Sequence record: MZ501075
Source: Escherichia phage IrisVonRoten
Strand: one strand, 5' to 3'
Length of the DNA: 64,000 nt
The notes below the pieces were generated by a model. It saw nothing but the letters and a program-made list of their open reading frames with translations, was not told the DNA's origin and ran no database searches. Positions 5,931 through 64,000 of this stretch are shown piece by piece; the first letter of the stretch is position 1, and each line of letters starts with the position of its first letter. The position numbers and the translations under genes were made by a program.

Positions 5931-6042
5931 CACGCGCCTATGTACGCGGTATAAAATGATTATCTAATACCATACATTTCCCATTAAAAGCAAGCAAATT
6001 TTTTATTTAAATGCAATATCATAGGCTTATTTAAAATTGTAG

Positions 6043-6071
6043 TTGCTTTTTACTGTATATACTGGTATAAT
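6043..6071 (+). promoter_or_regulatory. T5-type early promoter upstream of phoH-like gene
   Basis: ttgctttttactgtatatactggtataat then ATTTGTAAGTTGATAAAC. Confidence 0.55.
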
Positions 6072-6144
6072 ATATTTGTAAGTTGATAAACAAGATCTTT
6101 TTGTTGATCCTCTGTTAGCGAAGTACACTATAGGAGTGTTATTT

Positions 6145-6897
6145 ATGGGAAAAGCACGTCAAAAAAGAGAGAACCGCAATGGTTCAAGAAAGCGTGGCAA
6201 CAAATATGAGAATAACGTAATTCAGGCTGATTTTTCTAATGATTACGCTAACCCAGTTGCTAAATCCCTAGTAGGTAAAAACCGAGAGCAAAAATCATAT
6301 ATCAATATGATCAAGAACAACACAGTGACTGTGGGTATCGGTGAGCCAGGTACTGGTAAAACCTTTATCCCGTCTGTTCTTGCAGCTCAGGAACTCGTAG
6401 ACATTCACTCAGATATTGAGCAAGTGATCCTCGTACGTCCTAACGAACCTCTAGGTAAGTCTCTTGGTATGCTTCCTGGTGACCTAGCAGAAAAGCTAGA
6501 GCCTTGGTTAGAGCCAATAGCTGATGGTATGAAATGGGCCATCGGTGATCATGCCTATAAGGGATATGTCGAACGTCAGAAAATTAAATTTTTGGCTATA
6601 GAACATGCTCGTGGCAGAACTTTCAACAACTCCTATGTAATTGTCGATGAAGCTCAGAATATTTCCGTTGAGGCAATGGTTTGTCTCCTAACTCGTGTAG
6701 GACAAGACTGCCGTTTAATTATCTGCGGGGATATAGCTCAAAAAGACATTAAAGGTGACTCAGGTCTAGCACTTCTTATGGAAGTTTATGAGAAATATGA
6801 AAATGCTCCATTCTCAATGATCGAATTAATTGATAACGTTCGTTCTGCTGAGTCTAAAGCATTCTACGATATTTTTAAAGACATGGGGAAGGTGTAA
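6145..6897 (+). CDS. phoH: PhoH-like ATPase
   Basis: Walker A GEPGTGKT, Walker B-like VIVDEAQN; start chosen at ATG after RBS taggag. Confidence 0.8.
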   Translation: MGKARQKRENRNGSRKRGNKYENNVIQADFSNDYANPVAKSLVGKNREQKSYINMIKNNTVTVGIGEPGTGKTFIPSVLAAQELVDIHSDIEQVILVRPNEPLGKSLGMLPGDLAEKLEPWLEPIADGMKWAIGDHAYKGYVERQKIKFLAIEHARGRTFNNSYVIVDEAQNISVEAMVCLLTRVGQDCRLIICGDIAQKDIKGDSGLALLMEVYEKYENAPFSMIELIDNVRSAESKAFYDIFKDMGKV

Positions 6898-9571: not shown

Positions 9572-9580
9572 TAAAAGACA

Positions 9581-9606
9581 AGGAGATCTTCGGGTCTCCT
9601 TTTTCT
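9581..9606 (+). terminator. Rho-independent terminator after nrdA
   Basis: aggagatcttcgggtctcct followed by TTTTCTTT. Confidence 0.6.
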
Positions 9607-9618
9607 TTGAAATTTTAC

Positions 9619-9647
9619 TTGCTAATCGCTACCTGATTTGCTATAAT
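9619..9647 (+). promoter_or_regulatory. T5-type early promoter upstream of nrdB
   Basis: ttgctaatcgctacctgatttgctataat. Confidence 0.6.
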
Positions 9648-9678
9648 ATTCCTGAAATAGTGAGAAAGAGGAAAATCA

Positions 9679-10824
9679 ATGACTACTTTACTAAACCTGA
9701 ATTGGGATCATACTAACGCTGATCTTTTCCTGGGCGATTCTCTAGGTATCGCAGATTATGTACGTGTAGCACATCCAGAACTAGAACGTCTGGCACTTCT
9801 GCAACGCTCTCAATTTTGGACTGAGACAGAAATCAGTTTAGAAGCTGATAAGAAACAATGGCCTAACCTCCCACGTGAAATTCAGGAAATTACACTTCTG
9901 AATTTAGCATGGCAGACTCAAACTGATTCCTTTATCAGTCGAGCGCCTGAAGCAGCTATTATGCCACTTGTAAGTCGTCCAGAACTAGAGGGTATGCTCA
10001 AGCAGTGGAGCTACTTTGAAGACCTGCATAGTCGTGCTTATAGTAATATTATTCGTAATGTGCTGACTGATCCAGCAGAATTTATTGATTCTGTAACTAA
10101 AAACCAAGAAGCATTTGCACGTATTGCAGATTCTGTTGAACTGTTCGATGAACTGTACCAGTTAGGTCAGTATTTCATCGCAGTACGTGATCATCGTGGT
10201 GACAATACATATCCAGAAACTGAGTTCCCTGAAGTTAAGCGTGAAACTCAGGCTAAACTGTTAGATGCTTATTTTGCAATCTACGGTCTGGAAGCAATGC
10301 AGTTCTACGCATCCTTTGCGTGTACTTTTGCTCTAGCAGAGAACGATATTCTGCAGGGTATTGCTAAAAATCTGCAATTAATCGCTAAAGATGAGGCTCT
10401 GCACACCCAGATGTCTAAAGCAATCATCCAGATTATGTTCCAGCAGTTTGACAAAGATCTGGTAGATGAAGCAGTGGCTAAAGCACCAGCACAGCTCCTG
10501 AAAACTCTGAAAACTGAAATTGAATGGGGTCATTTCATCTTCAAAGGTCGTAGTCTAATCGGTTTGAATGCAGAACTTCTAGAAGAATACTTGTACTTTG
10601 TGGGGCGTAATGCATTTATGCACATTGGTGTAGAATGGCCTAGTCACTTACCAGTAATCACTAAAAACCCTATTCCGTGGATCATGAACTGGTTGGATAC
10701 TACTTCTCTACAGCCTGCTCCACAAGAAATCCAGATTGGCGCAGCCTACCGTGTAGGTCAGGTAACTGAGACCTCTACTGATACTCTGAAAGATCTGGGC
10801 AATGAATTTGGAGATTTCCTATGA
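9679..10824 (+). CDS. nrdB: ribonucleoside-diphosphate reductase beta subunit (class I)
   Basis: 381 aa; di-iron ligand motifs DEALH and FYASFA..FALAE typical of R2. Confidence 0.9.
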   Translation: MTTLLNLNWDHTNADLFLGDSLGIADYVRVAHPELERLALLQRSQFWTETEISLEADKKQWPNLPREIQEITLLNLAWQTQTDSFISRAPEAAIMPLVSRPELEGMLKQWSYFEDLHSRAYSNIIRNVLTDPAEFIDSVTKNQEAFARIADSVELFDELYQLGQYFIAVRDHRGDNTYPETEFPEVKRETQAKLLDAYFAIYGLEAMQFYASFACTFALAENDILQGIAKNLQLIAKDEALHTQMSKAIIQIMFQQFDKDLVDEAVAKAPAQLLKTLKTEIEWGHFIFKGRSLIGLNAELLEEYLYFVGRNAFMHIGVEWPSHLPVITKNPIPWIMNWLDTTSLQPAPQEIQIGAAYRVGQVTETSTDTLKDLGNEFGDFL

Positions 10825-51936: not shown

Positions 51937-52674
51937 TCGGATTTGCACATATTCTAGGGCAGTTTTCATGTTCCTAGAAACTCCAGCAATAGGCGGTTTA
52001 ATACAGGGCGGTTATAGGGAGGGCGGTTATTTCTAGGAGACATTTTTCGAAAACACATTTCTGGATTTTACTGTCGGATTTGCACATTGATATTCTAGAA
52101 ATTTATGGTCGGATTTGCACAAATGCCTAAGTTTTTAGGAACTCATACTCTCTTGAGAATAGCAGCATTATTTCGGGCCGAAGGCCCATGATTGCCTGAG
52201 TTTTTAGAGCCACAAGAATTTTCACTTGTCAAGCTATTTTGCCCCATTTTGCTAATAAAATTTTACTTTTTCTGCACCTATCTCAAATTTCCCCAAATTA
52301 TCTCAACTCTTCCCCAAAATCCCCGCAAATCAGGTGCTCCGCACCAATCCTGCGCCCCCACCATTCTAGCCCCCAAATTTCTCTCGCTCTCTCATCTTCT
52401 CCTCAAACCTATACAATCACACACCCTCCAATCGAAGTCACAAAAATCTTGTCGGATTCGCACATCTTAATCCTAGAAAAACCGTGTCGGATTTGCACAT
52501 ATCCCATAGGATTCGAACGCAGTTCGTGATTGCTGGAGTTTTTGGGAAAATTCGTCGTCGGATTCGCACATTACAAAAGTTTTTGGGGTCGGATTTGCAC
52601 ACTACCAAAAATTGTCGGATTCGCACATACATGCCCGCACGTAACACCCGTGGAGCAATGTCGGATTTGCACAA
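51937..52674. repeat. array of nine dispersed copies of a 14-bp motif GTCGGATT(T/C)GCACA
   Basis: Copies near 51937, 52073, 52108, 52451, 52486, 52557, 52588, 52614, 52660. Confidence 0.75.
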
Positions 52675-52731
52675 AAGCGCAGGGCAATTGCCCTGCTCGC
52701 CTGAATGCGAATGATAATGAGAATCAATCTT

Positions 52732-52890
52732 ATTTAAAAAGCGGAATGAGAATGATAATGATTCGCATTTAAAAAGCGGAATGAGAATCAATCTCATTTA
52801 AAAAGCGGAATGATTCTCATTTAAGAAGTGGAAGGATTCTCATTTAAAAAGCGGAATGAGAATCAATCTCATTTAAGAACGGAAGTGAGA
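52732..52890. repeat. iteron-like tandem repeats (about 6 copies of CATTTAARAAGCGGAATGA-like unit)
   Basis: Direct repeats with variable spacers; degenerate copies at 52820 and 52870. Confidence 0.7.
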
Positions 52891-52892
52891 AA

Positions 52893-53010
52893 CACTGTTA
52901 TTTAAGTTATCCACAGACTTATCAACAGCACGATTTGCCTTGACAGAATTCTAGCCATTTTGAGGCGTTATCAACAGACTTATCAACAGCTTATCCTACT
53001 GTATAAATAT
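52893..53010. repeat. left arm of approx. 120-bp imperfect inverted repeat (contains DnaA-box-like TTATCCACA)
   Basis: Reverse complement of 55215-55345 aligns (atttaagttatccaca ... ttatcctactgtataaatatacag). Confidence 0.65.
52907..52915 (+). promoter_or_regulatory. DnaA box consensus TTATCCACA
   Basis: Exact 9-mer. Confidence 0.5.
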
Positions 53011-53162
53011 ACAGTATTCCTATGCAGTGAATAATTCTAATATAGGCTTAAAACGTCCTGAATCGCATTCTAACGCGTTTTATTTTGGAGGAGGTATTTT
53101 AATAAGGGGAAATTTGTTTGCAGGCAGAAAAGGCGGGGCCAGATAGTTGCGCCCCGTTATTA

Positions 53163-53357
53163 TTAGTCCGGTATTTGATGGGAGAACTCTACGCTTTCAC
53201 CGTAGGAATCTACTAGATTAGTGTAGTAACCATACTCATCATATATAAGTTTGTCATACTCTTGATTCTCACAAATTGCGCGGTTTTCTTTTGTATCTTC
53301 TACATAGAATGTATCCACGGTAACACTAGTTTTACTAATAACAATTTTATCACTCAT
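53163..53357 (-). CDS. hypothetical protein (64 aa)
   Basis: ORF track; motif aacggggcgttact immediately upstream of ATG. Confidence 0.4.
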   Translation of the reverse strand: MSDKIVISKTSVTVDTFYVEDTKENRAICENQEYDKLIYDEYGYYTNLVDSYGESVEFSHQIPD

Positions 53358-53598
53358 AGTAACGCCCCGTTATTAATAGATGTATTGTTGAAAATAGCGG
53401 CGGATATTGTCGCCACCGTTGGGATCATTAGCAGGCTTAATATTACCCACGAAAATATATAGTCTCATAACGCCATCGCTCCTAGAATGAGAATGATTAT
53501 CAATATCATTGTAAAGCCATTACCAAATCGTAAACGCTGGGAATGTTTCCCAGCGGTATTATTAGATTTGTGACTTTGCGTTTTACGCCACCAGCTAT

Positions 53599-53811
53599 TC
53601 ACGGTTTTAAATTCTCTATAGTTAATTTTGCGCGAATAGTGATTCCATATAATTCGCCTCCCTTGTTTCTTACATCAGGTAGCCAGTCCCACAATTCAGG
53701 GTATCCGCTTAAAATTCCTAGCGATGCAAGATTAGCAATAAAACCGGCTATAGTAACCGCTTCCAGTGAAATAGTTACACGATTATTAATAACTAAAGTA
53801 AACTTTTTCAT
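53599..53811 (-). CDS. hypothetical protein (70 aa)
   Basis: ORF track. Confidence 0.4.
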   Translation of the reverse strand: MKKFTLVINNRVTISLEAVTIAGFIANLASLGILSGYPELWDWLPDVRNKGGELYGITIRAKLTIENLKP

Positions 53812-54167
53812 TGCGCCACCTTTCGAAACGCTGTTTCGATACTTTCAGCGGTTGATTGAATATACGCGCCTTTCATAATTAGACGCTCCGTACATACTTT
53901 GCGGAAAATGTCAATAAATTCATTTTCATTTTCCGCTATTAACGCTTCCCCCATAACCTGAACGTCACAAGACCCAAAAGTTAAAAATTGAAACGCTAGT
54001 TCACGGGCGACAACGGCATTAATTTTATAGTGCGCCTTGCCCTCATAAATATTAATAACGCCCTTATATGCTGGTGAAAGCTGATTTAAATAGTTTGCTA
54101 ATAATGCCGGACGGCAATTAGTAATAAAGCGATTGCCTTCATAAATAACCATTTTATAACCTCCCAA
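53808..54167 (-). CDS. hypothetical protein (119 aa)
   Basis: ORF track. Confidence 0.45.
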   Translation of the reverse strand: MGGYKMVIYEGNRFITNCRPALLANYLNQLSPAYKGVINIYEGKAHYKINAVVARELAFQFLTFGSCDVQVMGEALIAENENEFIDIFRKVCTERLIMKGAYIQSTAESIETAFRKVAQ

Positions 54168-54275
54168 TCAGGTATCCAGATAAAAGCATAAAAATCCCCA
54201 GTAAAAGGGGATCATTCTTAAATAAGGTGGCGGTAAAACCGCCAACCATTGCAAGGAGAATAACAATAACGCTTT

Positions 54276-54488
54276 TCATAGTACCCCACGAAAGGCCGCG
54301 TAAAAGGTGGCAAAATATTTAACCGTTTCAGCTATCACGTTGCCGCGCTTATCAAATTTCTTTTCTGTAACACGAAAGGCGTTTTTATTCCGTGCTACAT
54401 ATTCGATTTTACAATCCTCCCGCTCGAACGTGTTAACGTCCACCAGCTTAAAACCTTTTGAACGGGCAAGAGAAACGTTGCGGATCAT
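54276..54488 (-). CDS. hypothetical protein (70 aa)
   Basis: ORF track. Confidence 0.4.
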   Translation of the reverse strand: MIRNVSLARSKGFKLVDVNTFEREDCKIEYVARNKNAFRVTEKKFDKRGNVIAETVKYFATFYAAFRGVL

Positions 54489-54683
54489 TTTTATTCTCCT
54501 TTACTCATGCAGCCCAGCAAGTAAGAAAAAACAGCGATACCCGCGCCAATAATAACCGCGTGAACGTCGAAAGCTATTGCAAACAACGATAAAATAGCGC
54601 CCAAGATACCCGCTAGAATAGCTCGAAAAATAACCATTTTTATTCCCCTAGTTAGTGGGGCGAAAGTAACGCCCCGTTATTAA

Positions 54684-54947
54684 TTACATTAAAACGATTT
54701 TGGCGGCTTGTTTTTTGGTGCAATGTTCCGCCTTCAGGGTATCCAGCAAAAAGCCAGCCGTTTGCTGATCGATTTGATCATTATCATAAAGCGCCTGAAT
54801 GGTAGTGTATGTTTTAGCAATGCCGTATTCTTGCACCATTTCTTGAATGATCCAGCGATTTGATACCCAACCTTTTCCAGTGAAAAGAGCGTCAGAAGAA
54901 GAATAAGCAACCATTTTAAGCCTCCAATTTTTTGGGAAAATTTTCAA
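54684..54947 (-). CDS. hypothetical protein (87 aa)
   Basis: ORF track. Confidence 0.4.
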   Translation of the reverse strand: MKIFPKNWRLKMVAYSSSDALFTGKGWVSNRWIIQEMVQEYGIAKTYTTIQALYDNDQIDQQTAGFLLDTLKAEHCTKKQAAKIVLM

Positions 54948-55214
54948 CCGTCCTCGAACGGTGTAAAGGCATTATAACAAAAAAGGCCGCTATAAAAGGC
55001 GACCTTTACAAAACTTTACATTAGGTTAGTTATTACTCTCTTTCTCTTTCTAGTTACTTGGGGCATATTGGTCAACCGCGCAGCGGTACAGTAAAGAGCA
55101 AAACACGGTGAAGCCACCAGGGCGACGGGTGAAGGCTTCACTTTAATATTACCCCACCGCATTTAGCTCGTTAGAAAGCGTTTTAGGCCGCCTAAAATTG
55201 ATTGCAGTTGTTAA

Positions 55215-55345
55215 CACTACCCATTTACCCTGTATATTTATACAGTAGGATAACATGTGGATAAGTCTGTGGATAAGTCCTTATATCGCCGCCTATCGTG
55301 TCAAATCATTTTGTGCTGTTAATAACATTGTGGATAACTTAAATG
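55215..55345. repeat. right arm of approx. 120-bp imperfect inverted repeat with three DnaA boxes
   Basis: tgtggataag x2 and tgtggataa (reverse-complement TTATCCACA). Confidence 0.65.
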
Positions 55346-55371
55346 ATAGTGGTTCTCACTTAGGACGATAG

Positions 55372-55424: not shown

Positions 55425-55620
55425 CATTAATTTATAAGTATATTATATATCATGAAATAGTTAGTTGGCTAATGAGATTTTCCGTGATTAATAGTCTGCT
55501 AATAGTTCCGGCTGTTACAATCCACCAGCATGATTATCATCCTAGCAACTATTAGTCTGCTATCTTTCCGATGCATACTAACAAATAAAAGTCAATTAAT
55601 TTATTTCATAAAATAAGTAG

Positions 55621-55653
55621 TTATCCACTGGAAAATAAAAGTCAAGTGGATAA
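55621..55653. promoter_or_regulatory. pair of convergent DnaA-box-like sites (TTATCCACT / AGTGGATAA)
   Basis: 8/9 matches to TTATCCACA in inverted orientation. Confidence 0.4.
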
Positions 55654-56109
55654 CTAGGAAAATTTCATTTTTGCTTTTGGGGATAAGTTATCAACAAGGC
55701 TAGAATGCGCCTAAAACGCCCTAGAACGCGATGAAAGTTTTAGCCATGCCATTGCATTGCCTACCCTCGTTTATCGCTACCACGAGCTTTTTAGTTTTTG
55801 TCAAGTAGGGCAAGGCAAATATAAATGAAAAAATTACTTGCCAACCTGCTCGGTTTTATGGTATTCGCGCGCCCGTTTCCTTTAATTTTAGTGCGCCGCG
55901 CCCAGGTCGCCGCACGGTGTCCGGTGGCATTTTGTCTTTACGTTTCTTTACAAAAATAAGGTTGCGCCATTTTTACTATTTGCTATTATTTATCTCGTAG
56001 GGCGGCAATGACGAACTACACGGCGGGAAGTTTACCGCCGCGCTCTTTAAAAATTGGGTACATCTTAAAGTCTATCGGCGGTAAACTTATATTATAAGGA
56101 ATCGCAGAT

Positions 56110-56313
56110 ATGAAACAAACTTTATTGATCACTGGTAAACCAGCTAAAAAATTAGATGGTACTACTAAAAAATTGTTGACAATAGCCCAGCAATCCGTAA
56201 AATACCGATTTGCTCAGTACAAGAAAGGCCGCCAGCAGGGTTTAGAAATGATCTGGCGTAATATTATGATCGACCTGAAAGAAAATCATAAAAAACTGCA
56301 AAAAACAGTTTGA
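56110..56313 (+). CDS. hypothetical basic protein (67 aa)
   Basis: ORF after RBS taaggaatcgcagatATG. Confidence 0.4.
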   Translation: MKQTLLITGKPAKKLDGTTKKLLTIAQQSVKYRFAQYKKGRQQGLEMIWRNIMIDLKENHKKLQKTV

Positions 56314-56542
56314 CACTCTAGCCGATAGGCTTTAAGATGTACCCAGTTCGATGAGAGCGATAACTTGATACAATTTGACGGCCGGTACTTGCCATAATGT
56401 GCCCCGCCCCCCTAACTGGGATATAGCGGCCCGCGTGGAGTTCCTTAAATTGATTATAATGGCGAGTGGATTTTTTCTTATTATCTGCTAGAAAGTAGCA
56501 GATAATGCGGAACAATCCGTTTAATAAACTGGAGTTTATACC

Positions 56543-56794
56543 ATGAAAAACGTTATTAATACGCCTAAAATTGGTCAATCCGTTTTCATCCCTTTCGTTA
56601 CTAAAACGGATGAACTAACCGGAAAAGCCGAACGTATTAAAGGTGCGGCGCTTATGCCGTTTGATACAATCGACGCGGTATACGCTGAAAATGAACGTAG
56701 TAACAACGGCAAAACCGTTTTTAGCGTTCGCGTTAAATCCGGCGACGTTGTAAAGGTTGTACAGCGTAACGAAAAATGGGAAGCTGTAGCGTAA
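56543..56794 (+). CDS. hypothetical protein (83 aa)
   Basis: ORF after RBS ctggagttt. Confidence 0.45.
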   Translation: MKNVINTPKIGQSVFIPFVTKTDELTGKAERIKGAALMPFDTIDAVYAENERSNNGKTVFSVRVKSGDVVKVVQRNEKWEAVA

Positions 56795-56890
56795 TAGTGT
56801 TACTTTTATATCCCCCAGTAGTTCGGGGGATATAACGATTAACATTATGTTAATCTTATCCCTTAAATTAAACTAATAGGAGTTTTTACC

Positions 56891-57298
56891 ATGACTAACG
56901 TTAAAACCGCAAAATTTGCTTGGAATGAAGAAAACACTCAAAAAGCTGTTTCTATGTACCAGCAGTTAATTAATGAAAACGGTTTAGATTTCGCAAATAG
57001 CGACGGTTTAAAAGAGATTGCAAAAGCAGTGGGCGCGTCTTCTCCCGTGTCTGTTCGCTCAAAATTGACCAGCGCAAAAGCGTATCAGAAAAGCGATAAG
57101 CCTCGCAAAGTTGGCGGCGGTAGCTCAATCCGCAAAGCTCACTATGTACGCGTTATCGCTAAACATGCTATTGATTCCGGCATTATTAAAGACGCCGACG
57201 ATCTGGCAAGTCTGGAAAGTGCAAAACTTGAAACGCTGGACGCCGTAGCGCAACTGTTAGGCGTTGCCGATGAAGTAAAACAGGCCGCAGGTGAATAA
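56891..57298 (+). CDS. A2: A2-like pre-early protein (candidate)
   Basis: 135 aa protein just upstream of A1-like gene; identification by size/position only. Confidence 0.4.
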   Translation: MTNVKTAKFAWNEENTQKAVSMYQQLINENGLDFANSDGLKEIAKAVGASSPVSVRSKLTSAKAYQKSDKPRKVGGGSSIRKAHYVRVIAKHAIDSGIIKDADDLASLESAKLETLDAVAQLLGVADEVKQAAGE

Positions 57299-57306
57299 AT
57301 TTAATT

Positions 57307-57332
57307 AGTGGGGAATATTCCCCACTATAATT
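57307..57332 (+). terminator. terminator-like hairpin
   Basis: agtggggaatattccccact. Confidence 0.45.
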
Positions 57333-57354
57333 TCCCTTTGACTGGAGTTTTAAA

Positions 57355-57552
57355 ATGATCTTTTACCCCACTGAATCGTTAATTCTAGGCTTATTTATTA
57401 TGGCGGCCTCGTTATTATTCGCTTATTTTCAAAATGATTTAGACTCATATTATTTTAAACGTAAGTCTAAATTGGCAAAGCGTTTAGGTCTGATTTGTTT
57501 TATTGCCGCCATTGCTTGTGGTGTTAGTTCTAGCCTAGTGCCTTTAAATTAA
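57355..57552 (+). CDS. small membrane protein (65 aa)
   Basis: Two hydrophobic helices. Confidence 0.4.
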   Translation: MIFYPTESLILGLFIMAASLLFAYFQNDLDSYYFKRKSKLAKRLGLICFIAAIACGVSSSLVPLN

Positions 57553-57642
57553 TGTTGCAAATTATAACGCCTATTGTTCGAGGCGTTATATTTGGCAATA
57601 TTGCCGTTATTAACCTAATCCCTTTAATGGAGTTTTATTACT

Positions 57643-59313
57643 ATGATTATTTCCGCAGAAAAACAAACCGTTATCCTGAAAATGGCCGCTGACTTTAACT
57701 TCTACGGTAAACGCCTGCGCGCCACTAAATTGGAAGTTTGTGACGATATTTCGAAAGCGGTATACGATACTACTAAACACTCCACCGCCATTTGTGATTG
57801 GTTGGAAGCAAATAAACCAGCGAAACCAAAAGCGGCAAAAGTAGCAAAAGCCATTAAAAATGATGAGCGCCCAGAAGCGGCTGGGATTGTTTCTAGTACG
57901 GTGGAGCAATGGGAAGTAAAACAAGGTAAACGCTTTATTATTACATCGATTCAGAATAATACTTTCCCGCATAAAAACTTTTTAGCCTCACTGGAGCAAT
58001 TTGCTAAATATATCGGTGCTGATTTGCTTGTTTCTAAGTATATTTATAATAAAAACGGTTTTCAAAATGGGGAAGGTGCGGATGGAATCAAATATGATTC
58101 CGCGTTCGATAAATATATTTGCAGCAAAAACGTGTTTTTAAATAACCGCCGCTTTGCTTTCATGGCTGAAATTAATGTTTTGCCAACCGCAGATTATCCG
58201 CTTTCTGGATTCGCCGAGACTGCAACGGCTTTAAATATTGAGGGGCTGGCAATTGGTCACGCTAAAATTACCGCTGAAAGCGTGCCAGCTTTAAAAGGTG
58301 AAGTAGTGCGCCGTATGTATTCAACCGGAACGGCAACGTTAAAAAACTACATTCAGCAGAAAGCAGGACAAAAGGCCGAGGCGCTGCATAACTTCGGTGC
58401 GCTAATTGTCGAGTTCGACGAGGACGGGGAATTTTTTGTTCGCCAGCTTGAAACAATGGACGAAAGCGGGGTGTTTTATGATCTGAACGTTTGCGCTACT
58501 CCTGCCGGATGCTATGAGACATCGGGGCATGTTTTAGGCTTGCAGTATGGCGATATTCACGCCGAAAAATTAGATGAGGAGTGCGCCGCCGCATCTTGGG
58601 GGCATGGTGATACTTATGGGCTAGTAGATATTCTTAAACCAAAATATCAGTTTGTGCATGACGTTCACGATTTTACATCCCGCAATCATCATAACCGCGC
58701 ATCCGGTGTATTCCTAGCTAAACAATACGCCGCCGGACGTGATAAAGTTCTGGATGATCTTATCGATACGGGGCGCGTGCTGGAATCAATGGAACGTGAT
58801 TTTAGTCAAACAATCATTGTTGAATCTAATCACGATTTGGCGCTATCCCGTTGGCTTGATGATCGTAATGCTAACATCAAAGACGATCCAGCAAACGCCG
58901 AGTTATATCACCGCCTGAATGCTGCAATTTACGCGGCAATCGGTGAACACGACGAAACGTTTAACGTGCTAGATTATGCGTTGCGCAAGGTTGCAGGTTG
59001 TGAATTTAACGCCATTTTCCTGACCACTGATCAATCTTTCAAGATTGCAGGCATTGAATGCGGCGTACACGGTCACAATGGCATTAACGGCAGTCGTGGC
59101 AATCCTAAACAATTTAAAAAATTGGGCAAGTTAAACACGGGGCATACCCATACCGCCAGCATTTATGGCGGCGTATATACCGCTGGCGTTGCTGGTAGTC
59201 TGGATATGGGTTACAACGTTGGCGCGTCAAGCTGGACGCAAACGCATTTAATTACCTATGCAAATGGTCAACGCACTTTGATTGACTTTAAAAACGGTAA
59301 ATTCTTTGCATAA
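57643..59313 (+). CDS. A1: A1-like pre-early protein with metallophosphoesterase motifs
   Basis: 556 aa; GDIHAEKLD, GHGDTYG, HDVHDF, GHTHT phosphoesterase-like motifs. Confidence 0.55.
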   Translation: MIISAEKQTVILKMAADFNFYGKRLRATKLEVCDDISKAVYDTTKHSTAICDWLEANKPAKPKAAKVAKAIKNDERPEAAGIVSSTVEQWEVKQGKRFIITSIQNNTFPHKNFLASLEQFAKYIGADLLVSKYIYNKNGFQNGEGADGIKYDSAFDKYICSKNVFLNNRRFAFMAEINVLPTADYPLSGFAETATALNIEGLAIGHAKITAESVPALKGEVVRRMYSTGTATLKNYIQQKAGQKAEALHNFGALIVEFDEDGEFFVRQLETMDESGVFYDLNVCATPAGCYETSGHVLGLQYGDIHAEKLDEECAAASWGHGDTYGLVDILKPKYQFVHDVHDFTSRNHHNRASGVFLAKQYAAGRDKVLDDLIDTGRVLESMERDFSQTIIVESNHDLALSRWLDDRNANIKDDPANAELYHRLNAAIYAAIGEHDETFNVLDYALRKVAGCEFNAIFLTTDQSFKIAGIECGVHGHNGINGSRGNPKQFKKLGKLNTGHTHTASIYGGVYTAGVAGSLDMGYNVGASSWTQTHLITYANGQRTLIDFKNGKFFA

Positions 59314-59369
59314 TTAAATTATTCCCCTAGCGGCTTGAAATATAGCCGCTATTACAGGAGTCACAAAAA

Positions 59370-59627
59370 ATGAAAGTTACATTACCCAAAACATTGGACG
59401 AAAAAGTATTCATTTCACCGGATGAAATGGAATCTGATAAAGTTTACAGCTTCGGGCCTATCCTAGCCGCTAAAACTAACACTGATGGTATTATTTCCGT
59501 CGATTCCCGTGATAATGATGTTGTTCCTTTTGATGACGATGGCGCTTTTTATGAGTGGCTGAGCGATAATAATTTACCCGTAAACGGTGAATTAACGCCG
59601 TACCAGATGCAGATTATTATCAAATAA
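59370..59627 (+). CDS. hypothetical acidic protein (85 aa)
   Basis: ORF track. Confidence 0.4.
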   Translation: MKVTLPKTLDEKVFISPDEMESDKVYSFGPILAAKTNTDGIISVDSRDNDVVPFDDDGAFYEWLSDNNLPVNGELTPYQMQIIIK

Positions 59628-59665
59628 ATTAAATCAATTATTAAACTAATTGGAGTTTTATAAAC

Positions 59666-60064
59666 ATGAAAAAGCAAAATATTCCATTTGACCGCGCTCA
59701 GTCTTCCATTGTTCTGGTTTATTCTAATGGCGAACGTTACCACGTCGAGGCGGGGCACGTTATTGATGAATTACTAGACTTTAATGACGCTTTGCAGGTT
59801 ACAACATTTGCATATACGCAGGGCAAACTAACCAGCCATATTAAAGCAAAAGGCGTTTATGTTGACACGGTGAAACAAGAAACGACCATTATTGACGCCG
59901 TAAAATCCGGCCTAGCCTTTGCAGTTGTAGCGCCTTGCCTCGCTTGCCTCGATGATCAATTGATCAGCGCAAAGGTATACACCTGCGCGGGTATTCGTTC
60001 CAGCGTATCCGGTGAGGATGTTAGTTTTATCGCTGATGCGTTGGCTTTTGGTCTGGCGTTCTAA
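59666..60064 (+). CDS. hypothetical protein (132 aa)
   Basis: ORF track. Confidence 0.4.
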   Translation: MKKQNIPFDRAQSSIVLVYSNGERYHVEAGHVIDELLDFNDALQVTTFAYTQGKLTSHIKAKGVYVDTVKQETTIIDAVKSGLAFAVVAPCLACLDDQLISAKVYTCAGIRSSVSGEDVSFIADALAFGLAF

Positions 60065-60144
60065 TAGTTAATTTATTATTACCCGCTATCTATAAGCGGG
60101 TAATGCTGAATTAATCTAATCCCTTAAATGGAGAACGTAACAAA

Positions 60145-60879
60145 ATGAATCAAGTTAAGACGAATATTACCCGTAATTTCCCGCATATTTCCCGCGTCAT
60201 GATTTGGGATCTGGACGGCACTATCATTAACTCTTTCCATCGTGTAGCGCCTTGCTTTGATAGCGAGGGCAATTTAGATTTAAATAAGTATAAAAATGAA
60301 GCCTGCAAACATGATTTAATAATGCAAGATACACTATTGCCCCTTGTTACATATATGCGCCAGTGCATGAATGACGCAAATACTTTAAACATTATTTGCA
60401 CCGCTCGACTAATGAGCAAGTCGGACTATTATTATTTGCGTAAACAAGGGTTGCGCGGTCGTGGTGATAGTAATATCCGTGTATTTTCCCGCGATACACT
60501 ACACAAATATTTTGAAGCTGATAAAGTTAGCGAGATATACCACAGCAAAGACGCAGTTTATAAAAGTTACTATTTTGGGCTATTCAAACAATTATATCCG
60601 AACGCTGATTTTACAATGATTGATGATCATAAAGGCGTGCTATCAGCGGCAGCGTCATACGGATTTAAAACGCTGGACGCACAAGCCGTTAACGATATTC
60701 TATCAATCGGCGTGACATTGATAGGTGAAACCTTTATTGATGAATCTCTTGAGGATGATAATGATTATCAGTTCCTAGCCGACCGCCTGCAATTATGTTG
60801 GGAAGGTATGACCGAAGAAGAACGCGCAGAATATAGTTGCAGCCCGCAACAATATATTGAGAAATTAAAAGTTGCGTAA
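60145..60879 (+). CDS. dmp: deoxyribonucleoside-5'-monophosphatase-like HAD protein (Dmp-like)
   Basis: 244 aa; HAD motif I MIWDLDGTIINS; location next to A1-like gene. Confidence 0.55.
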   Translation: MNQVKTNITRNFPHISRVMIWDLDGTIINSFHRVAPCFDSEGNLDLNKYKNEACKHDLIMQDTLLPLVTYMRQCMNDANTLNIICTARLMSKSDYYYLRKQGLRGRGDSNIRVFSRDTLHKYFEADKVSEIYHSKDAVYKSYYFGLFKQLYPNADFTMIDDHKGVLSAAASYGFKTLDAQAVNDILSIGVTLIGETFIDESLEDDNDYQFLADRLQLCWEGMTEEERAEYSCSPQQYIEKLKVA

Positions 60880-61039
60880 TAATTAAAGTTGAAATTGTTT
60901 CACCTTGCAATTAAAATGGTTGCAGGGTGAAACAGTTAGCATGGTAATAGTAACGGGCGGTAATGAGACTCATTCTCATCTGAGAGGCCACTGGACACAC
61001 CCACGCGTACGTAATCCAAAGAAATTGGCAAAAGTCAAA

Positions 61040-61285
61040 TTAGCGCATAGAAGGGTCATCAAACCTGTGCTCTGGTCTGAACTCACGGAATCTCTTCCGC
61101 GACGCCCGAGATCCATCCGACCACTCCCGCTCAAACTCCGCACGTTTCTCGTCAAACTTCCGCTCCCTTTCCGCAATCTCCCGCGATACTTCCGCAGTAT
61201 ACTTACGATGCTTGTTAATAGCCGCAGTCATTCCGAAAATTCCCGCAAGTACCCCGATAATAAAAGCAATTATAATACTAAACAT
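61040..61285 (-). CDS. small membrane protein (81 aa)
   Basis: N-terminal TM helix, charged C-terminus. Confidence 0.4.
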   Translation of the reverse strand: MFSIIIAFIIGVLAGIFGMTAAINKHRKYTAEVSREIAERERKFDEKRAEFEREWSDGSRASRKRFREFRPEHRFDDPSMR

Positions 61286-61472
61286 CTAATTCCCTCTCAA
61301 TTTGCAGAATACGGGTACTATCACAACGTTGGAGTTCTACTAATTTTTCTATAGCAAATTGTTGCTGTTTTACCCGAGCCTCTAGAGTTTTTAGGCGAAC
61401 GTATACGGTGCAAGAAGCAATGAAAATTGTCCAGACTAGTATTACTGTTACTATAGCTACTACTTCCATCAT
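61278..61472 (-). CDS. small membrane protein (64 aa)
   Basis: N-terminal TM helix; overlapping start/stop with neighbours. Confidence 0.4.
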   Translation of the reverse strand: MMEVVAIVTVILVWTIFIASCTVYVRLKTLEARVKQQQFAIEKLVELQRCDSTRILQIERELDV

Positions 61473-61880
61473 TTACGTTTCTCCGTTAATAAAGTTTCAA
61501 TTCTAGCTAAGTGATTATCTAAAATACATTGCCCGATAATCACAACCCCTAGTAGTGCAATAATTATCCATTCCATTAAATCCACCCCGCCATAGCGGCT
61601 AACCAAAAACCTACGAAAATAAAGAATAGGATAGTTCCGAACCCAAAACTATTTATCCAACTCTCATACACTTCTCCACGCCTGCTCTTTCTTTTGTTTG
61701 ACATATCTTTCATGCTCCTATAAATGTGGTATTTAAAATATTTTATAATTTGGGCATAACCAACCGTGCCTGTGAACTCCTAGAAGGACTCCTATTTTTC
61801 TTACCTAGTGGTTTCTGCCAATATACCATCCAAGAAATAAAAAATTTAGTTTACTTGGATGTCTTTTTGTTTTATACTAA

Positions 61881-62147
61881 TTACAGGTAATTAGATTGCT
61901 CTAGTTTAAATTTACAATCACCATATTTAAGGTCAAACTGACTGAGATCCCACCACCCAAATTTAGTACGGAGCTGTACTACTGGGAAGCGATCTCCCTT
62001 AATACGAACTTTTTGAACCTTGAGGCCGTAATGTTCTTCTCCCGCACCACCAAAAGATTTTACAAATCCAGTACAAAATGGTTTGGGAGCAGGTGCACAA
62101 CCAGATAACATAACTGTGGCAACTAGTGCAATTACAAACTTTTTCAT
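61881..62147 (-). CDS. llp: lipoprotein, Llp-like (candidate superinfection-exclusion lipoprotein)
   Basis: Signal peptide + lipobox LSGC; divergent from adjacent receptor-binding-protein candidate. Confidence 0.5.
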   Translation of the reverse strand: MKKFVIALVATVMLSGCAPAPKPFCTGFVKSFGGAGEEHYGLKVQKVRIKGDRFPVVQLRTKFGWWDLSQFDLKYGDCKFKLEQSNYL

Positions 62148-62232
62148 ATTTATCTCTCCATTTCTAATTTATGAATTTATTATAGCAAAATAGAGGGATG
62201 AAAGCAAATACATTTTTATAATAGGAGATTAT

Positions 62233-63990
62233 ATGGGTTTTTTCGCTGGAAAGTATAGCGATGGTAAGACCGTACTATCCTTAAATACTGAATCTGGTGG
62301 TGACATTAATCGTCACTATAGTCCAAATGCCAATAGTATTTTTCATAGTGATATGCCATTTGTCCTAGTTGATGGTACTTACGAGGCTGGGCTAGGTAAT
62401 GCCGGAAATGGGTTTTTTGTATGTCAGATGCCTTCTGACATAATAAATATTAAATCCAATGACCCAGGTAGAGTTATACTAACTGCTATTGAAATTAATG
62501 GTACTCACAGAGCTTTTCTTAATGGTACTCAGAGTAAAGTTGGTCAAACTATAGTTGCCACTCAGGCAGATCCCTTTAGATCTTTTGCTAGTGTTTCTCA
62601 AACCAGTGGGTTTGCATTTGGTAATAGTCTAGCATCTGGCACTTATAATTATAATCCCTCGATAGGGCATGAAGAATCTATCTCTAGGAGTGGTACAGGG
62701 GGTACTACGTTACATAGTACCTATCATGGGATAGTTAGGCCCGGTGCGGGAGCTCCTGTAGGTGTTACTGTTGCAGAAGCCTTTGCACAATTAGGTTTTC
62801 CTACTAATAGTAGCACAGTACCTGTAGATGGCAATAACCCGTACTATTGGGATCCTGGATGGATGTCGCCTCTAGGAGCAGCGCATAGAGGGCATGATTG
62901 GTTTTATGTCTGCAATTCTAATATACGTGGATATGGTGGGGTTAGACAAGGGCTCCCAGGTAATGTAAATACTATGTACCACGACGGTGGGAACAGATTT
63001 GTTTGTAGGGGATCTACTACTAATTTAGCTAACCAGTCGGGTGACTCTACAATACTACAGGATTGGTATAATATAACTCCTACTAAGGTTATTTGGTATG
63101 TTCTTAATTTAAGGTACTCTAATGGTGGAATGAGTATTTCAGGCAACCCCTTTACTGGTTCCGATATTCTTATATCTCCTTCTAATTTCATAATTAAAGG
63201 GGTAAGTCTCCCCAATACCGGGTATAAATTTATAAATCAGAATGCTTTTGGTAACCTAGGTTACCGTCCTGATATGGAGTATATAGGGAATAACGCAGCG
63301 TATACTGGGGTTTTTGGGGATACTACTGCAAGGTGTGAACTTGTAGGGTCTAGTAATGGAGGATTATGGTCTCCTGTAGACTATGGTGGAGCTAAATCAC
63401 AGATTAGCATTTATAAGTTCGGAGTAGGTAAACAGTGGTATGTAAACTCAAATAATAATACTATTGGTAATGAACATGGGGTTGTTTGGGGGCCCTCAGC
63501 AGTTCCACTGCGACTTTTTGGTGGAAATGTAGGTAGTTCTTATATGGGAGATGATATTACACCCCACTATCCAGGAACTGGGGATAGATACGTTGGTTTA
63601 TCAACTATTGGGCTGGGTATACCAGGCGGAAATGCTACAGTAATTCTTACTACTGAAGTTATATCAGGTAATCTTAATTGTGCAGGTGTTCCCGCTAATA
63701 CATGGAATAATGGTGTGTTTCAGGTGCAAGGAAGAAGAGCATATAGCTATAGCGGCGGGGATGCAATATTCCACCAGATTTTAACGCTACCTGTGGGCTA
63801 TCTAGTACCTTTTCATACTACATCTGCTTTTAGATACACGCCTAACAATGCTCTTAGTAGAAACAGTTTTATATATACCGTTAAAAATCTAGGAAATGGA
63901 AATGTAGAGTTAGGAGTAGTTATGCACGTGAGTTTGGGTAGCGCAGTTTTCCTACCTAGATTAAGAGTAACAGTTCAACGCCTTACCTAA
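62233..63990 (+). CDS. candidate receptor-binding tail protein (pb5/Oad-like)
   Basis: 585 aa Gly/Asn/Ser-rich protein adjacent to Llp-like gene; assignment by context. Confidence 0.45.
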   Translation: MGFFAGKYSDGKTVLSLNTESGGDINRHYSPNANSIFHSDMPFVLVDGTYEAGLGNAGNGFFVCQMPSDIINIKSNDPGRVILTAIEINGTHRAFLNGTQSKVGQTIVATQADPFRSFASVSQTSGFAFGNSLASGTYNYNPSIGHEESISRSGTGGTTLHSTYHGIVRPGAGAPVGVTVAEAFAQLGFPTNSSTVPVDGNNPYYWDPGWMSPLGAAHRGHDWFYVCNSNIRGYGGVRQGLPGNVNTMYHDGGNRFVCRGSTTNLANQSGDSTILQDWYNITPTKVIWYVLNLRYSNGGMSISGNPFTGSDILISPSNFIIKGVSLPNTGYKFINQNAFGNLGYRPDMEYIGNNAAYTGVFGDTTARCELVGSSNGGLWSPVDYGGAKSQISIYKFGVGKQWYVNSNNNTIGNEHGVVWGPSAVPLRLFGGNVGSSYMGDDITPHYPGTGDRYVGLSTIGLGIPGGNATVILTTEVISGNLNCAGVPANTWNNGVFQVQGRRAYSYSGGDAIFHQILTLPVGYLVPFHTTSAFRYTPNNALSRNSFIYTVKNLGNGNVELGVVMHVSLGSAVFLPRLRVTVQRLT

Positions 63991-64000
63991 AGGAGGAAAT

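What the first reader, a model, noticed from the sequence alone, without database searches (positions are those of the whole stretch)
52893..55345. A 120-bp inverted-repeat pair with DnaA boxes brackets a 2.2-kb minus-strand small-gene module
The segment 52893-53010 is an imperfect inverted copy of 55215-55345. Both arms contain TTATCCACA DnaA-box consensus sites and an AT-rich palindrome (ctgtataaatatacag). Between them lie five to seven small minus-strand genes, opposite in orientation to the flanking genes, with a recurring motif AACGGGGCGTTAC at gene boundaries (53143, 53358, 54665). This architecture is compatible with an invertible or mobile cassette, or a replication-origin-like locus.
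Basis: seen in the sequence. Interest (0 to 1): 0.65.

Follow-up and report, generated by a model that had tools for sequence, protein, structure and literature searches.

The report
T5 phage injection-stop inverted repeats
This is the already described pair of 131-bp inverted repeats with DnaA boxes that flanks a variable pre-early operon in the first-injected end of T5-like phage genomes; the only possibly new point is that the palindrome in each arm is a near-consensus LexA (SOS) box.

Summary
Arms 52883-53014 and 55230-55361 are 132 nt and 78% complementary. All four perfect TTATCCACA sites in the 64-kb window lie inside them.

The structure is not new. The window comes from a T5/BF23-like phage, and the locus is its terminal-repeat, first-step-transfer (FST) region. 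The arms are the published repeats IRD'-spacer-IRC' and IRC-spacer-IRD. They are annotated in T5 GenBank records and discussed by Davison (2020) as part of the injection stop signal, with eight DnaA/DnaA* boxes. The genes between them are the variable pre-early operon, T5p011-016 equivalents.

In 39 related genomes both arms are always present.
- Orthologous arms are 85-91% identical, whereas the two arms of one genome are only 76% identical, with no covariation.
- Selection therefore acts on shared motifs, not on arm-arm pairing or recombination.
- No recombinase is present.
- The module has the same orientation in 35 of 39 genomes and is inverted only in the Klebsiella-phage lineage.

This does not fit a programmed switch, a mobile element or a replication origin.

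One point is possibly unreported. "Palindrome D", at the inner end of every arm, matches the LexA SOS-box consensus at 19/20 (left arm) and 17/20 (right arm) positions.

The parts
52066..52674 (+). DRD direct repeats (GTCGGATTYGCACA), 8 copies here and one more at 50059. They straddle the point equivalent to the T5 left-terminal-repeat end, about 52207.
52678..52696 (.). Palindrome J (GCAGGGCAATTGCCCTGC) and the position equivalent to the T5 7.9% major nick, close to the FST shear point.
   Evidence: mapping of the AY587007 features listed
52693..52917 (+). DRC/DRE repeat array (GAATGAGAATCA..CATTTAAAAAGCG units, 23-35 nt spacing) immediately outside the left arm.
   Evidence: (family D1)
52883..53014 (+). 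Left arm, equal to T5 IRD'-spacer-IRC' (Repeat Region 3, the candidate injection stop signal). DnaA/DnaA* boxes lie at 52907-52915, 52919-52927, 52968-52976 and 52980-52988.
   Evidence: (93% identity to T5 9332-9462)
52997..53016 (.). Palindrome D, TACTGTATAAATATACAGTA, a 19/20 match to the LexA SOS-box consensus.
53118..53160 (-). GC-rich hairpin (GGGGCG..CGCCCC) followed by UUUUCUG. It is the terminator-like end of the minus-strand operon and the first copy of the TAATAACGGGGCG motif.
   Evidence: BF23 annotates a terminator at the orthologous site
53163..54947 (-). Variable pre-early operon of nine small ORFs, equivalent to T5p011-016. It includes a homologue of the T5.015 nicking endonuclease at 54276-54488. 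Its gene content is mosaic among relatives.
54879..55007 (-). Promoter equivalent to T5P5, upstream of gene 011 (54990-54879, 97% identity to T5), preceded by a terminator hairpin at 55007-54982. The 37-kDa T5p010 gene present in T5 is absent here.
55166..55191 (-). Equivalent of T5 inverted repeat B'.
55228..55247 (.). Second SOS-box-like palindrome, CCCTGTATATTTATACAGTA, a 17/20 match to the LexA consensus.
55230..55361 (-). Right arm, equal to T5 IRC-spacer-IRD (Repeat Region 2). DnaA/DnaA* boxes on the minus strand lie at 55256-55264, 55268-55276, 55317-55325 and 55329-55337.
56041..56370 (+). Repeat Region 1: IRA'/IRA (56041-56079 and 56321-56359) with equivalents of the characterised pre-early promoters P-H22 (56145-56232) and P-D/E20 (56276-56370). 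These drive the plus-strand A2/A1 operon.
   Evidence: (I2)
56891..57298 (+). A2 gene, a DNA-binding protein required for second-step transfer. It was used as the anchor for collecting relatives.

Best explanation
The locus is the first-step-transfer (pre-early) end of a T5/BF23-like phage genome. The two arms are the known repeats IRD'-spacer-IRC' (left arm, next to the FST/SST boundary) and IRC-spacer-IRD (right arm, in the divergent promoter region). They bracket the variable pre-early operon, which is transcribed opposite to A1/A2.

Shown here:
- Each arm is a conserved array of short motifs: two pairs of DnaA boxes 3 bp apart, a CTTGACA block, an AGTGAGAAnCACT block and a consensus-like LexA box.
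- These motifs are kept independently in each arm across phages of E. coli, Salmonella, Enterobacter, Klebsiella and Vibrio.
- The arms do not co-evolve with each other.

Inferred: the arms work as double-stranded landing pads for DNA-binding proteins that already exist in the cell when the DNA enters. DnaA is one candidate, as proposed by Davison, and I add LexA. The arms do not work by pairing with each other or by recombining. Occupied arms would anchor or compact the incoming DNA just inside the shear point. That would contribute to the pause in injection, which is later relieved by A1/A2, and/or would insulate and regulate pre-early transcription.

The inverted orientation is probably a historical duplication rather than a mechanistic requirement, because Vibrio phage PG07 works with one arm.

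Confidence by step: about 0.97 for the identity of the locus, about 0.75 for a protein-site array rather than pairing or inversion, and about 0.35 for a direct role in injection stop.
For: Identity:
- megablast finds 477 T5-like records, and the BF23 match lies inside its annotated left terminal repeat.
- T5 GenBank AY587007 annotates inverted repeats C, D, D', C' and palindrome D. AY692264 annotates the 'injection stop signal'.
- These features map one-to-one onto the window.
- Davison 2020 describes the 131-bp pair, the eight DnaA boxes in pairs 3 bp apart, and the variable, oppositely transcribed operon between them.

Statistics: 4 of 4 perfect DnaA boxes lie in the arms against 0.78 expected.

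Conservation:
- The arm is found in 534 records, 517 of them nearly full length. The module is found in 438 records but only 12 cover at least 80% of it.
- All 39 A2-anchored or GenBank genomes have both arms.

Motif rather than pairing constraint: identity is 91% left-left, 85% right-right, 76% left-right within a genome and 76% left-right between genomes. The permutation test for co-variation gives p=0.19.

SOS box:
- The match to the consensus is 19/20 and 17/20, with none expected by chance.
- An approximate heterology index is 0.8 and 3.8, against 8.7 for the next best site in the window.
- The box is present in both arms of all 39 genomes and in the single arm of PG07.
- The composite DnaA-box plus SOS-box pattern occurs only in T5-sized contigs among 2.9 million viral contigs.
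Against: - No experiment has tested the function of these repeats. The BF23 paper of 2023 and a PNAS paper of 2026 both say so.
- DnaA and LexA binding are inferred from sequence only.
- My heterology-index matrix was rebuilt from SOS boxes recalled from memory, so it is approximate.
- T5-like phages are listed with E. coli DH5alpha as host. DH5alpha is recA1 (my own knowledge), so LexA cleavage cannot be essential for infection.
- Binding of cytoplasmic proteins to DNA that has already entered does not obviously stop further entry.
- The right arm lies about 3.5 kb before the main stop point.
- A few right arms carry CAA or CGG instead of CAG in the box.
Confidence: 0.7

Rival explanations
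1. Operator array for pre-early transcription. The arms, especially the right arm between the divergent pre-early operons, would be regulatory regions where host LexA and/or DnaA modulate or block transcription. This could be repression of a promoter reading out of the palindrome, or insulation of the module. On this reading the arms have no role in stopping DNA entry.
For: - The right arm lies between the A2/A1-side promoters and the module promoter.
- A weak promoter-like match, TTAACA-16-TATATT, has its -10 element inside the right palindrome.
- A TTTACC-16-TAGGAT arrangement places the SOS box exactly in the spacer (read).
- SOS boxes normally overlap promoters (established knowledge).
Against: - Promoter-like matches in the region are at chance level: 19 found against 13.9 +/- 3.6 expected.
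- The candidate -35 element is not conserved in T5.
- The left arm lies downstream of a terminator in a convergent, non-coding region with no gene to regulate.
- The characterised T5 pre-early promoters lie outside the arms.
Confidence: 0.2
2. Binding sites for phage proteins. The palindrome and the repeated boxes would be recognised by the dimeric DNA-binding protein A2, with membrane-associated A1, to restart or process the DNA. The resemblance to host DnaA and LexA sites would be incidental.
For: [quoted passage not shown]
- A 16-20 bp palindrome is the typical target of a dimeric regulator.
- A2 is conserved in every genome that has the arms.
Against: - Injection stops without phage protein synthesis (established T5 biology, restated), so the stop signal itself must be read by pre-existing components.
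- A 19/20 match to the LexA consensus and four perfect DnaA consensus 9-mers are very unlikely to be incidental.
- The same host-type motifs persist in the Vibrio phage arm. The lowest A2 identity I measured was 66%, in the Klebsiella-type loci; I did not measure it for the Vibrio phage.
Confidence: 0.12
3. Arm-arm pairing structure. The two arms would pair as a cruciform, a stem in single-stranded DNA, or a 'knot', and this would physically block transfer or serve packaging or replication.
For: - The 132-nt arms are 78% complementary.
- Davison speculates about a knot formed by both repeats.
- The AA/TT flip at the palindrome centre among close relatives suggests the short palindrome occasionally extrudes or template-switches.
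Against: - There is no co-variation. Left-right identity within a genome equals that between genomes (76.1% against 76.0%), with p=0.19.
- The distance between arms varies from 1.6 to 4.1 kb.
- Klebsiella-type phages have a truncated right arm and PG07 has only one arm.
- The DNA enters double-stranded.
Confidence: 0.05
4. Programmed invertible or mobile cassette: a site-specific or homologous inversion switch, or a transposon bounded by terminal inverted repeats.
For: - Inverted repeats flank a block of oppositely oriented genes.
- The operon is inverted in four Klebsiella-type genomes.
- Gene content is mosaic.
Against: - There is no recombinase or transposase: Pfam gives nothing, and PHROGs gives only unknown-function families plus the T5.015-like nuclease.
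- The orientation is fixed in 35 of 35 Tequintavirus, Epseptimavirus and Enterobacter-phage genomes.
- The arms are not homogenised.
- The arms occupy the same genomic position in every relative.
- No target-site duplication is visible at the outer arm ends.
Confidence: 0.03
5. DnaA-dependent replication origin.
For: Eight DnaA or DnaA-like boxes lie in precisely spaced pairs next to AT-rich repeat arrays, which resembles oriC.
Against: - T5 origins were mapped near the middle of the genome, and replication genes are not on FST DNA.
- There is no composition or skew signal beyond the transcription-strand effect.
- The element is duplicated in inverted orientation and again in the other terminal repeat.
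Confidence: 0.04

Closest known systems
Bacteriophage T5 inverted repeats IRC-spacer-IRD (6022-6152) and IRD'-spacer-IRC' (9332-9462) of the left terminal repeat, within or next to the injection stop signal (Heusterspreute 1987; Wang 2005; Davison 2015 and 2020; GenBank AY587007 and AY692264)
   Same: - The position in the terminal repeat is the same.
- The arm length is the same (131-132 bp) and the arms are in the same inverted layout.
- The box architecture matches: four pairs of DnaA/DnaA* boxes 3 bp apart.
- Palindrome D is present, and so are the neighbouring elements: DRC/DRE, palindrome J, the nick site, DRD, IRB' and IRA.
- Identity to T5 is 93% for the left arm and 80% for the right arm.
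   Different: - The only difference is the gene content between the arms: 2.2 kb and nine small ORFs, lacking the 37-kDa T5p010 gene and the 495-nt gene seen in BF23 and Stitch.
- All eight boxes are intact here, whereas Davison reports that T5 has lost one.
E. coli oriC / datA-type DnaA-box clusters
   Same: There are clusters of consensus and near-consensus 9-mer DnaA boxes with fixed short spacing.
   Different: - No unwinding element or origin activity is known at this site.
- The site lies in DNA that is injected before any replication function is expressed.
- The proposed use is anchoring or stalling, not initiation.
LexA operators (SOS boxes) of Gammaproteobacteria, consensus TACTG(TA)5CAGTA
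   Same: - The CTGT-N8-ACAG pattern has a TA-rich centre.
- The match to the consensus is 19/20 in the left arm and 17/20 in the right arm.
- The approximate heterology index lies in the range of strong natural operators.
   Different: - The boxes are not demonstrably placed over a promoter.
- They sit in a strictly virulent phage, in non-coding repeat regions.
- Binding has not been tested. I found no mention of it in the T5 literature I could search.
Invertible DNA switches (Hin/Gin/Cin, Fim)
   Same: Inverted repeats flank a segment whose orientation differs between some lineages.
   Different: - There is no recombinase.
- The arms are 132 bp, only 78% alike and not homogenised.
- The orientation is fixed within genera.

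Membership tests
T5-type FST inverted repeats (IRC-spacer-IRD / IRD'-spacer-IRC') | Located in the terminal repeat of a T5-like (Demerecviridae) genome, between the A1/A2 operon and the repeat/unique boundary | tested here: met
   The BF23 match lies inside its annotated left terminal repeat. A2, A1 and dmp lie downstream, and the T5 LTR end maps to about 52207.
T5-type FST inverted repeats (IRC-spacer-IRD / IRD'-spacer-IRC') | Two arms of about 131 bp in inverted orientation that are homologous to the T5 arms | tested here: met
   The arms are 132 nt. Identity to T5 is 93% (left arm against IRD'-spacer-IRC') and 80% (right arm against IRC-spacer-IRD).
T5-type FST inverted repeats (IRC-spacer-IRD / IRD'-spacer-IRC') | Eight DnaA/DnaA* boxes arranged in four pairs separated by 3 bp | tested here: met
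   Boxes at 52907/52919 and 52968/52980 on the plus strand, and 55329/55317 and 55268/55256 on the minus strand. Four are consensus and four have one mismatch.
T5-type FST inverted repeats (IRC-spacer-IRD / IRD'-spacer-IRC') | Arms bracket a variable pre-early operon transcribed opposite to A1/A2, with the DRC/DRE, palindrome J/nick and DRD repeats outside the distal arm | tested here: met
T5-type FST inverted repeats (IRC-spacer-IRD / IRD'-spacer-IRC') | Acts in cis to stop DNA injection after about 8% of the genome | not testable with these tools
   This is still only a hypothesis for T5 itself.
Site-specific invertible switch | A recombinase gene in or next to the invertible segment | tested here: not met
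   None of the nine module ORFs has a Pfam hit. PHROG hits are unknown-function families plus a nicking endonuclease.
Site-specific invertible switch | Both orientations found among close relatives or within a population | tested here: not met
   35 of 35 genomes outside the Klebsiella-type lineage have the same orientation. Only that lineage is inverted. Read-level data were not available.
Transposon or IS element bounded by terminal inverted repeats | A transposase, target-site duplication and variable insertion site | tested here: not met
   There is no transposase. The genomic position is the same in all relatives. No direct repeat lies outside the arms.
DnaA-dependent replication origin | A cluster of DnaA boxes | tested here: met
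DnaA-dependent replication origin | An adjacent AT-rich unwinding element and origin activity or a skew switch | tested here: inconclusive
   G+C is 0.32-0.43 around the arms and skew only follows the transcription strand. The literature maps T5 origins near the genome centre. Origin activity cannot be tested here.
LexA operator (SOS box) | CTGT-N8-ACAG with a TA-rich core close to TACTG(TA)5CAGTA | tested here: met
   The match is 19/20 and 17/20, with 0 expected in shuffles. The box is conserved in both arms of 39 genomes.
LexA operator (SOS box) | Overlaps or closely follows a promoter that it represses | tested here: inconclusive
   Only chance-level promoter-like matches overlap the boxes.
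LexA operator (SOS box) | Bound by LexA | not testable with these tools
   This needs EMSA, footprinting or ChIP.

The most novel reading that the evidence does not exclude
'Palindrome D' at the inner end of every arm is a functional, high-affinity LexA operator that has gone unnoticed. The arms would then be composite landing pads for two host proteins, DnaA and LexA, that load onto the first-injected DNA before any phage gene is expressed. They would take part in the still unexplained injection pause or in the timing of pre-early expression. This would give the roughly 60-year-old two-step-injection problem a second, genetically tractable host factor, because lexA(Def), lexA(Ind-) and recA hosts are all viable, unlike dnaA nulls. 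The probability below is for the site being both LexA-bound and functionally relevant and not previously reported. Binding in vitro alone I would put at about 0.85.
Probability: 0.3. Interest if true: 0.55.

Novelty: already known. Interest (0 to 1): 0.2.

Why it matters
As found, this is a rediscovery. The repeats, their DnaA boxes and the variable operon between them are annotated in T5 GenBank records and discussed at length by Davison.

The locus still matters because how T5 stops and restarts DNA injection remains unsolved. These repeats are the leading cis-acting candidates.

Two results from this check sharpen the problem:
- The arms are maintained as independent motif arrays, not as a pairing or recombining couple. 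This disfavours 'knot' or cruciform models that rely on base pairing between the arms.
- Every arm carries a near-consensus SOS box next to its DnaA boxes. This makes a simple, cheap test possible: LexA binding, and the FST phenotype in lexA and recA hosts or in palindrome mutants.

Tried and rejected
- Promoter and terminator scan of 51.9-56.6 kb. Promoter-like hits are at chance level and none in the arms is convincing. I did not build on the TTAACA-16-TATATT match.
- Arm-arm co-variation and concerted evolution. The result was negative, so pairing and recombination models were rejected.
- Composition and GC skew as an origin signature. There was nothing beyond the strand-of-transcription effect.
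- The other two CTGT-N8-ACAG sites in the window (40493, 50356). They have GC-rich centres and poor flanks, and I treat them as chance.
- Literature search for any LexA or SOS mention in T5-like phages. Nothing relevant was found. Davison 2015, Heusterspreute 1987 and Wang 2005 are not held in the library, so prior mention cannot be excluded. One search failed on a term that was too short.
- An SOS-timer model, in which LexA cleavage after A1-driven host DNA breakdown releases the block. I considered it and downgraded it, because T5-like phages are recorded with the recA1 strain DH5alpha as host.
- The conserved CTTGACA in the spacer as a -35 element. No -10 element lies at a workable spacing in either arm (read), so it remains unexplained.
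- RNA folding of the three TAATAACGGGGCG sites. Two sites are the 5' arms of GC hairpins and the third is not, and z-scores are weak (-0.3 to -1.9).
Full report
**1. The observation.**
- The repeat finder reports one outstanding inverted repeat in 52.0-56.5 kb. Its arms are 52883-53014 and 55230-55361, 132 nt, 78% complementary and 2215 nt apart. The pairwise alignment is and blastn gives E=6e-26.
The right-arm coordinates are about 15 nt off.
- The window holds exactly four perfect TTATCCACA sites, and all four are in the arms. Shuffles give 0.78 expected, and none of 100 reaches four.
- Counting one-mismatch variants, each arm has two pairs of boxes separated by 3 bp.
- The palindrome CTGTATAAATATACAG lies at the inner end of the left arm. 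Its centre-flipped form CTGTATATTTATACAG lies at the inner end of the right arm.
- Between the arms are nine tightly packed minus-strand ORFs of 31-119 aa.
- The AACGGGGCG core occurs three times, always on the minus strand and only in this module. The full 13-mer occurs twice.

**2. What it is.**
- megablast of 52.0-56.5 kb finds 477 phage records, all T5-like (Tequintavirus or Epseptimavirus). The best match is BF23, inside its annotated left terminal repeat and in reverse orientation.
- Downstream of the locus in the window lie A2, A1 and dmp, followed by the receptor-binding tail protein gene. The source assembly therefore carries one collapsed terminal repeat.
- T5 GenBank record AY587007 annotates 'inverted repeat C' (6022-6060), 'D' (6112-6152), 'D'' (9332-9372), 'C'' (9424-9462) and 'palindrome D' (9330-9349). 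Record AY692264 annotates 9140-10144 as 'injection stop signal'.
- Mapping these features onto the window reproduces the whole layout.

| T5 feature | Window coordinates |
|---|---|
| IRC' | 52884-52922 |
| IRD' | 52974-53014 |
| palindrome D | 52997-53016 |
| IRD | 55230-55271 |
| IRC | 55323-55361 |
| DRC repeats | 52694-52893 |
| palindrome J and 7.9% nick | about 52678-52696 |
| DRD repeats | 52066-52674 |
| LTR end | about 52207 |
| promoter T5P5 (upstream of gene 011) | 54879-54990 |
| P-H22 | 56145-56232 |
| P-D/E20 | 56276-56370 |

- Davison's 2020 preprint describes exactly this structure. He reports the 131-bp IRC-spacer-IRD and IRD'-spacer-IRC' pair, conserved in nearly all T5-like phages, with eight DnaA/DnaA* boxes in pairs 3 bp apart. 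He also notes that the distance between the arms is variable and that the coding region between them is poorly conserved and oppositely transcribed. He proposes that membrane-bound DnaA holds the DNA at these sites.
- The finding is therefore a rediscovery of a published and annotated feature.

**3.
- I collected 40 loci from IMG/VR anchored on the A2 protein, so the sample is unbiased with respect to the repeats. I added ten loci from eleven GenBank fetches: T5 (two records, one used), BF23, Es2, beppo, Stitch, GSW6, Enterobacter KKP_3711, Klebsiella Roth50 and Kpn24-P3, and Vibrio PG07.
- The window plus 38 of these FST regions give 39 distinct regions, and all carry both arms in the same inverted layout. 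Locus L045 has too little upstream sequence to tell, and PG07, which has one arm, is treated separately.
- The module between the arms ranges from 1590 to 4060 bp, with presence or absence of individual genes. The combination in the window is matched at 80% coverage or more by only 12 of 438 records, and never above 95% identity. The arm itself is nearly full length in 517 of 534 records.
- Orientation is the same as in the window in 35 of 39 genomes. In the four Klebsiella-type genomes the homologous genes lie on the other strand in reversed order, and the right arm is truncated to 97 nt. This is a lineage-level inversion that Davison had noted, not a switch.
- None of the nine module proteins has a Pfam hit. 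PHROGs gives six families of unknown function plus the T5.015-type nicking endonuclease, and two ORFs have no hit. There is no recombinase or transposase.
- Arm identities settle the recombination and pairing question.

| Comparison | Mean identity |
|---|---|
| left arm vs left arm, between genomes | 91.4% |
| right arm vs right arm, between genomes | 85.1% |
| left arm vs right arm, same genome | 76.1% |
| left arm vs right arm, different genomes | 76.0% |

- At the 15 columns that vary in both arms there is no within-genome matching beyond permutation (p=0.19).
- The arms therefore neither homogenise each other nor co-vary. What is conserved in both is a set of motif blocks: AGTGAGAAnCACT, the box pairs, CTTGACA and GTTATCCTACTGTATAwwTATACAG.
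- This pattern fits independent selection on protein-binding sites. It does not fit frequent recombination between the arms or a base-paired structure.
- Vibrio phage PG07 has a single arm with three consensus DnaA boxes and the palindrome, so the pair as such is dispensable.
- GC skew only mirrors the direction of transcription. T5 origins map elsewhere according to the literature cited by Davison.

**4. A detail that may be new.**
- The palindrome that T5 annotation calls 'palindrome D' reads TACTGTATAAATATACAGTA in the left arm. This differs by one base from the E. coli SOS-box consensus TACTG(TA)5CAGTA. The right arm reads TACTGTATAAATATACAGGG on the minus strand, three mismatches (none expected in shuffles).
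- I computed a heterology index with a matrix rebuilt from about 19 SOS boxes recalled from the literature, so it is approximate. The two sites score 0.8 and 3.8, inside the range of the training operators (0.4-9.2). The next best site in the 64 kb scores 8.7.
- The box is the best-conserved stretch of the arms. It has at most 2 mismatches in 38 of 39 left arms and 3-4 mismatches in most right arms. CTG...CAG is intact in all left arms and in all but six right arms, five of which carry CAA and one CGG. The box is also kept in the Vibrio phage.
- All the hosts are Gammaproteobacteria, which share this LexA motif (established knowledge).
- The composite pattern of a DnaA-type box, TTATnCnA and CTG-N9-ACAG occurs in 2.9 million viral contigs only on T5-sized contigs of 96-123 kb.
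- Davison's preprint contains no occurrence of 'LexA' or 'SOS'. Full-text searches found nothing relevant. The older subscription papers could not be read, so prior mention cannot be excluded.
- One caveat: T5-like phages are recorded with DH5alpha as host. That strain is recA1 (my own knowledge), so LexA cleavage cannot be required for infection. Any LexA role would be in binding, not in release triggered by the SOS response.

**5. Mechanism.**
- Shown: the identity of the locus, the motif composition of the arms, their independent conservation, and the absence of recombinase, of homogenisation and of co-variation.
- Inferred: the arms are double-stranded arrays of sites for proteins already present when the DNA arrives. 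I infer this because the stop needs no phage protein synthesis. Their occupation near the point where entry halts contributes to the pause and/or to organising pre-early transcription.
- Rhoades' minor roughly 5.8-kb FST band, quoted by Davison, would fit a weaker stop at the right arm.
- No experiment has tested any of this. My confidence in a direct role in injection stop is about 0.35.
- The rivals are a purely transcriptional operator role, recognition by A2/A1, arm-arm pairing, an invertible or mobile cassette, and a replication origin. They are weighed in the rival-explanations section.

**6. The boundary motif.**
- TAATAACGGGGCG sits at orthologous gene junctions in relatives. I counted 36 copies inside modules and 2 copies in the 454 kb outside them.
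- In the window, the copy at 53150 is the 5' arm of the operon's terminator-like hairpin. The copy at 54670 is the 5' arm of an intercistronic GC hairpin. The copy at 53363 directly precedes an ATG.
- I read it as a reused unit of stop codons followed by a G-rich hairpin or ribosome-binding junction. It may be a recombination joint for the mosaic gene content. It is not related to the arms.

**7. Verdict.**
- The feature is real and statistically solid, but already known.
- Interest is low, apart from the possibly unreported SOS box, which offers a cheap experimental handle on an old open question.

Noticed in passing
window 52997-53016 and 55228-55247; also L002 (T5) 5331-5350 and both arms of all 39 related loci: T5's 'palindrome D' is a near-consensus LexA SOS box (19/20 in the left arm, 17/20 in the right arm). 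It is conserved in every arm, including the single arm of Vibrio phage PG07. I found no mention of LexA in the T5 literature that I could search.
   Followed up: yes
window 53006-53007 versus 55237-55238; alignments: The asymmetric centre of the palindrome is either AA or TT among close relatives. It is never the single-step intermediate AT or TA. This looks as if the palindrome core is repeatedly flipped as a unit (hairpin or template-switch, or conversion from the other arm) rather than mutated base by base.
   Followed up: partly
L008 (Klebsiella phage Roth50) 6156-10103; also L009, L049, L050: In Klebsiella-type T5-like phages the pre-early operon between the arms is inverted relative to E. 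coli and Salmonella phages. Homologues of the 37-kDa, 495-nt and 119-aa genes lie on the other strand in reversed order. Three extra small genes sit next to the left arm, the right arm is truncated to 97 nt, and both SOS-like boxes have the left-arm-type CAGTA end.
   Followed up: partly
window 53150-53158, 53363-53371, 54670-54678 (minus strand): The junction motif TAATAACGGGGCG is confined to the module in the window and in relatives (36 copies inside modules, 2 outside). Two window copies form the 5' arm of GC hairpins and one lies directly before a start codon. It may be a reusable joint for the mosaic gene content.
   Followed up: partly
window arms, e.g. 52941-52947 (CTTGACA) and 52883-52897 (AAGTGAGAAACACT): Two further blocks are conserved in both arms of nearly all genomes. 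One is a perfect -35-like CTTGACA in the 'spacer', with no usable -10 element at the right spacing. The other is AGTGAGAAnCACT at the outer end. Neither is explained by DnaA or LexA.
   Followed up: no
window 52066-52674 and 50059: The nine DRD repeats (GTCGGATTYGCACA) contain ATTTGCACA, one mismatch from the DnaA-box consensus TTWTNCACA. They straddle the terminal-repeat boundary at about 52207.
   Followed up: no
window 55618-55656: This is a head-to-head palindrome, TAGTTATCCACTGGA-N9-TCAAGTGGATAACTA. It contains two DnaA-like boxes (TTATCCACT), and TTATCAACA follows at 55688. It lies in the AT-rich region between the right arm and the H22 and D/E20 promoters.
   Followed up: no
window 56500-64000: The window runs from A2, A1 and dmp straight into the receptor-binding tail protein gene. 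The source assembly therefore has a single collapsed terminal repeat (a circularly joined record), and the true genome end lies inside the window.
   Followed up: partly
window 54950-55230: Compared with T5, BF23 and Stitch, the window lacks the 37-kDa T5p010 gene and its promoter. The sequence passes from the conserved IRB'/hairpin segment (55100-55191) directly to the terminator and promoter of gene 011.
   Followed up: partly
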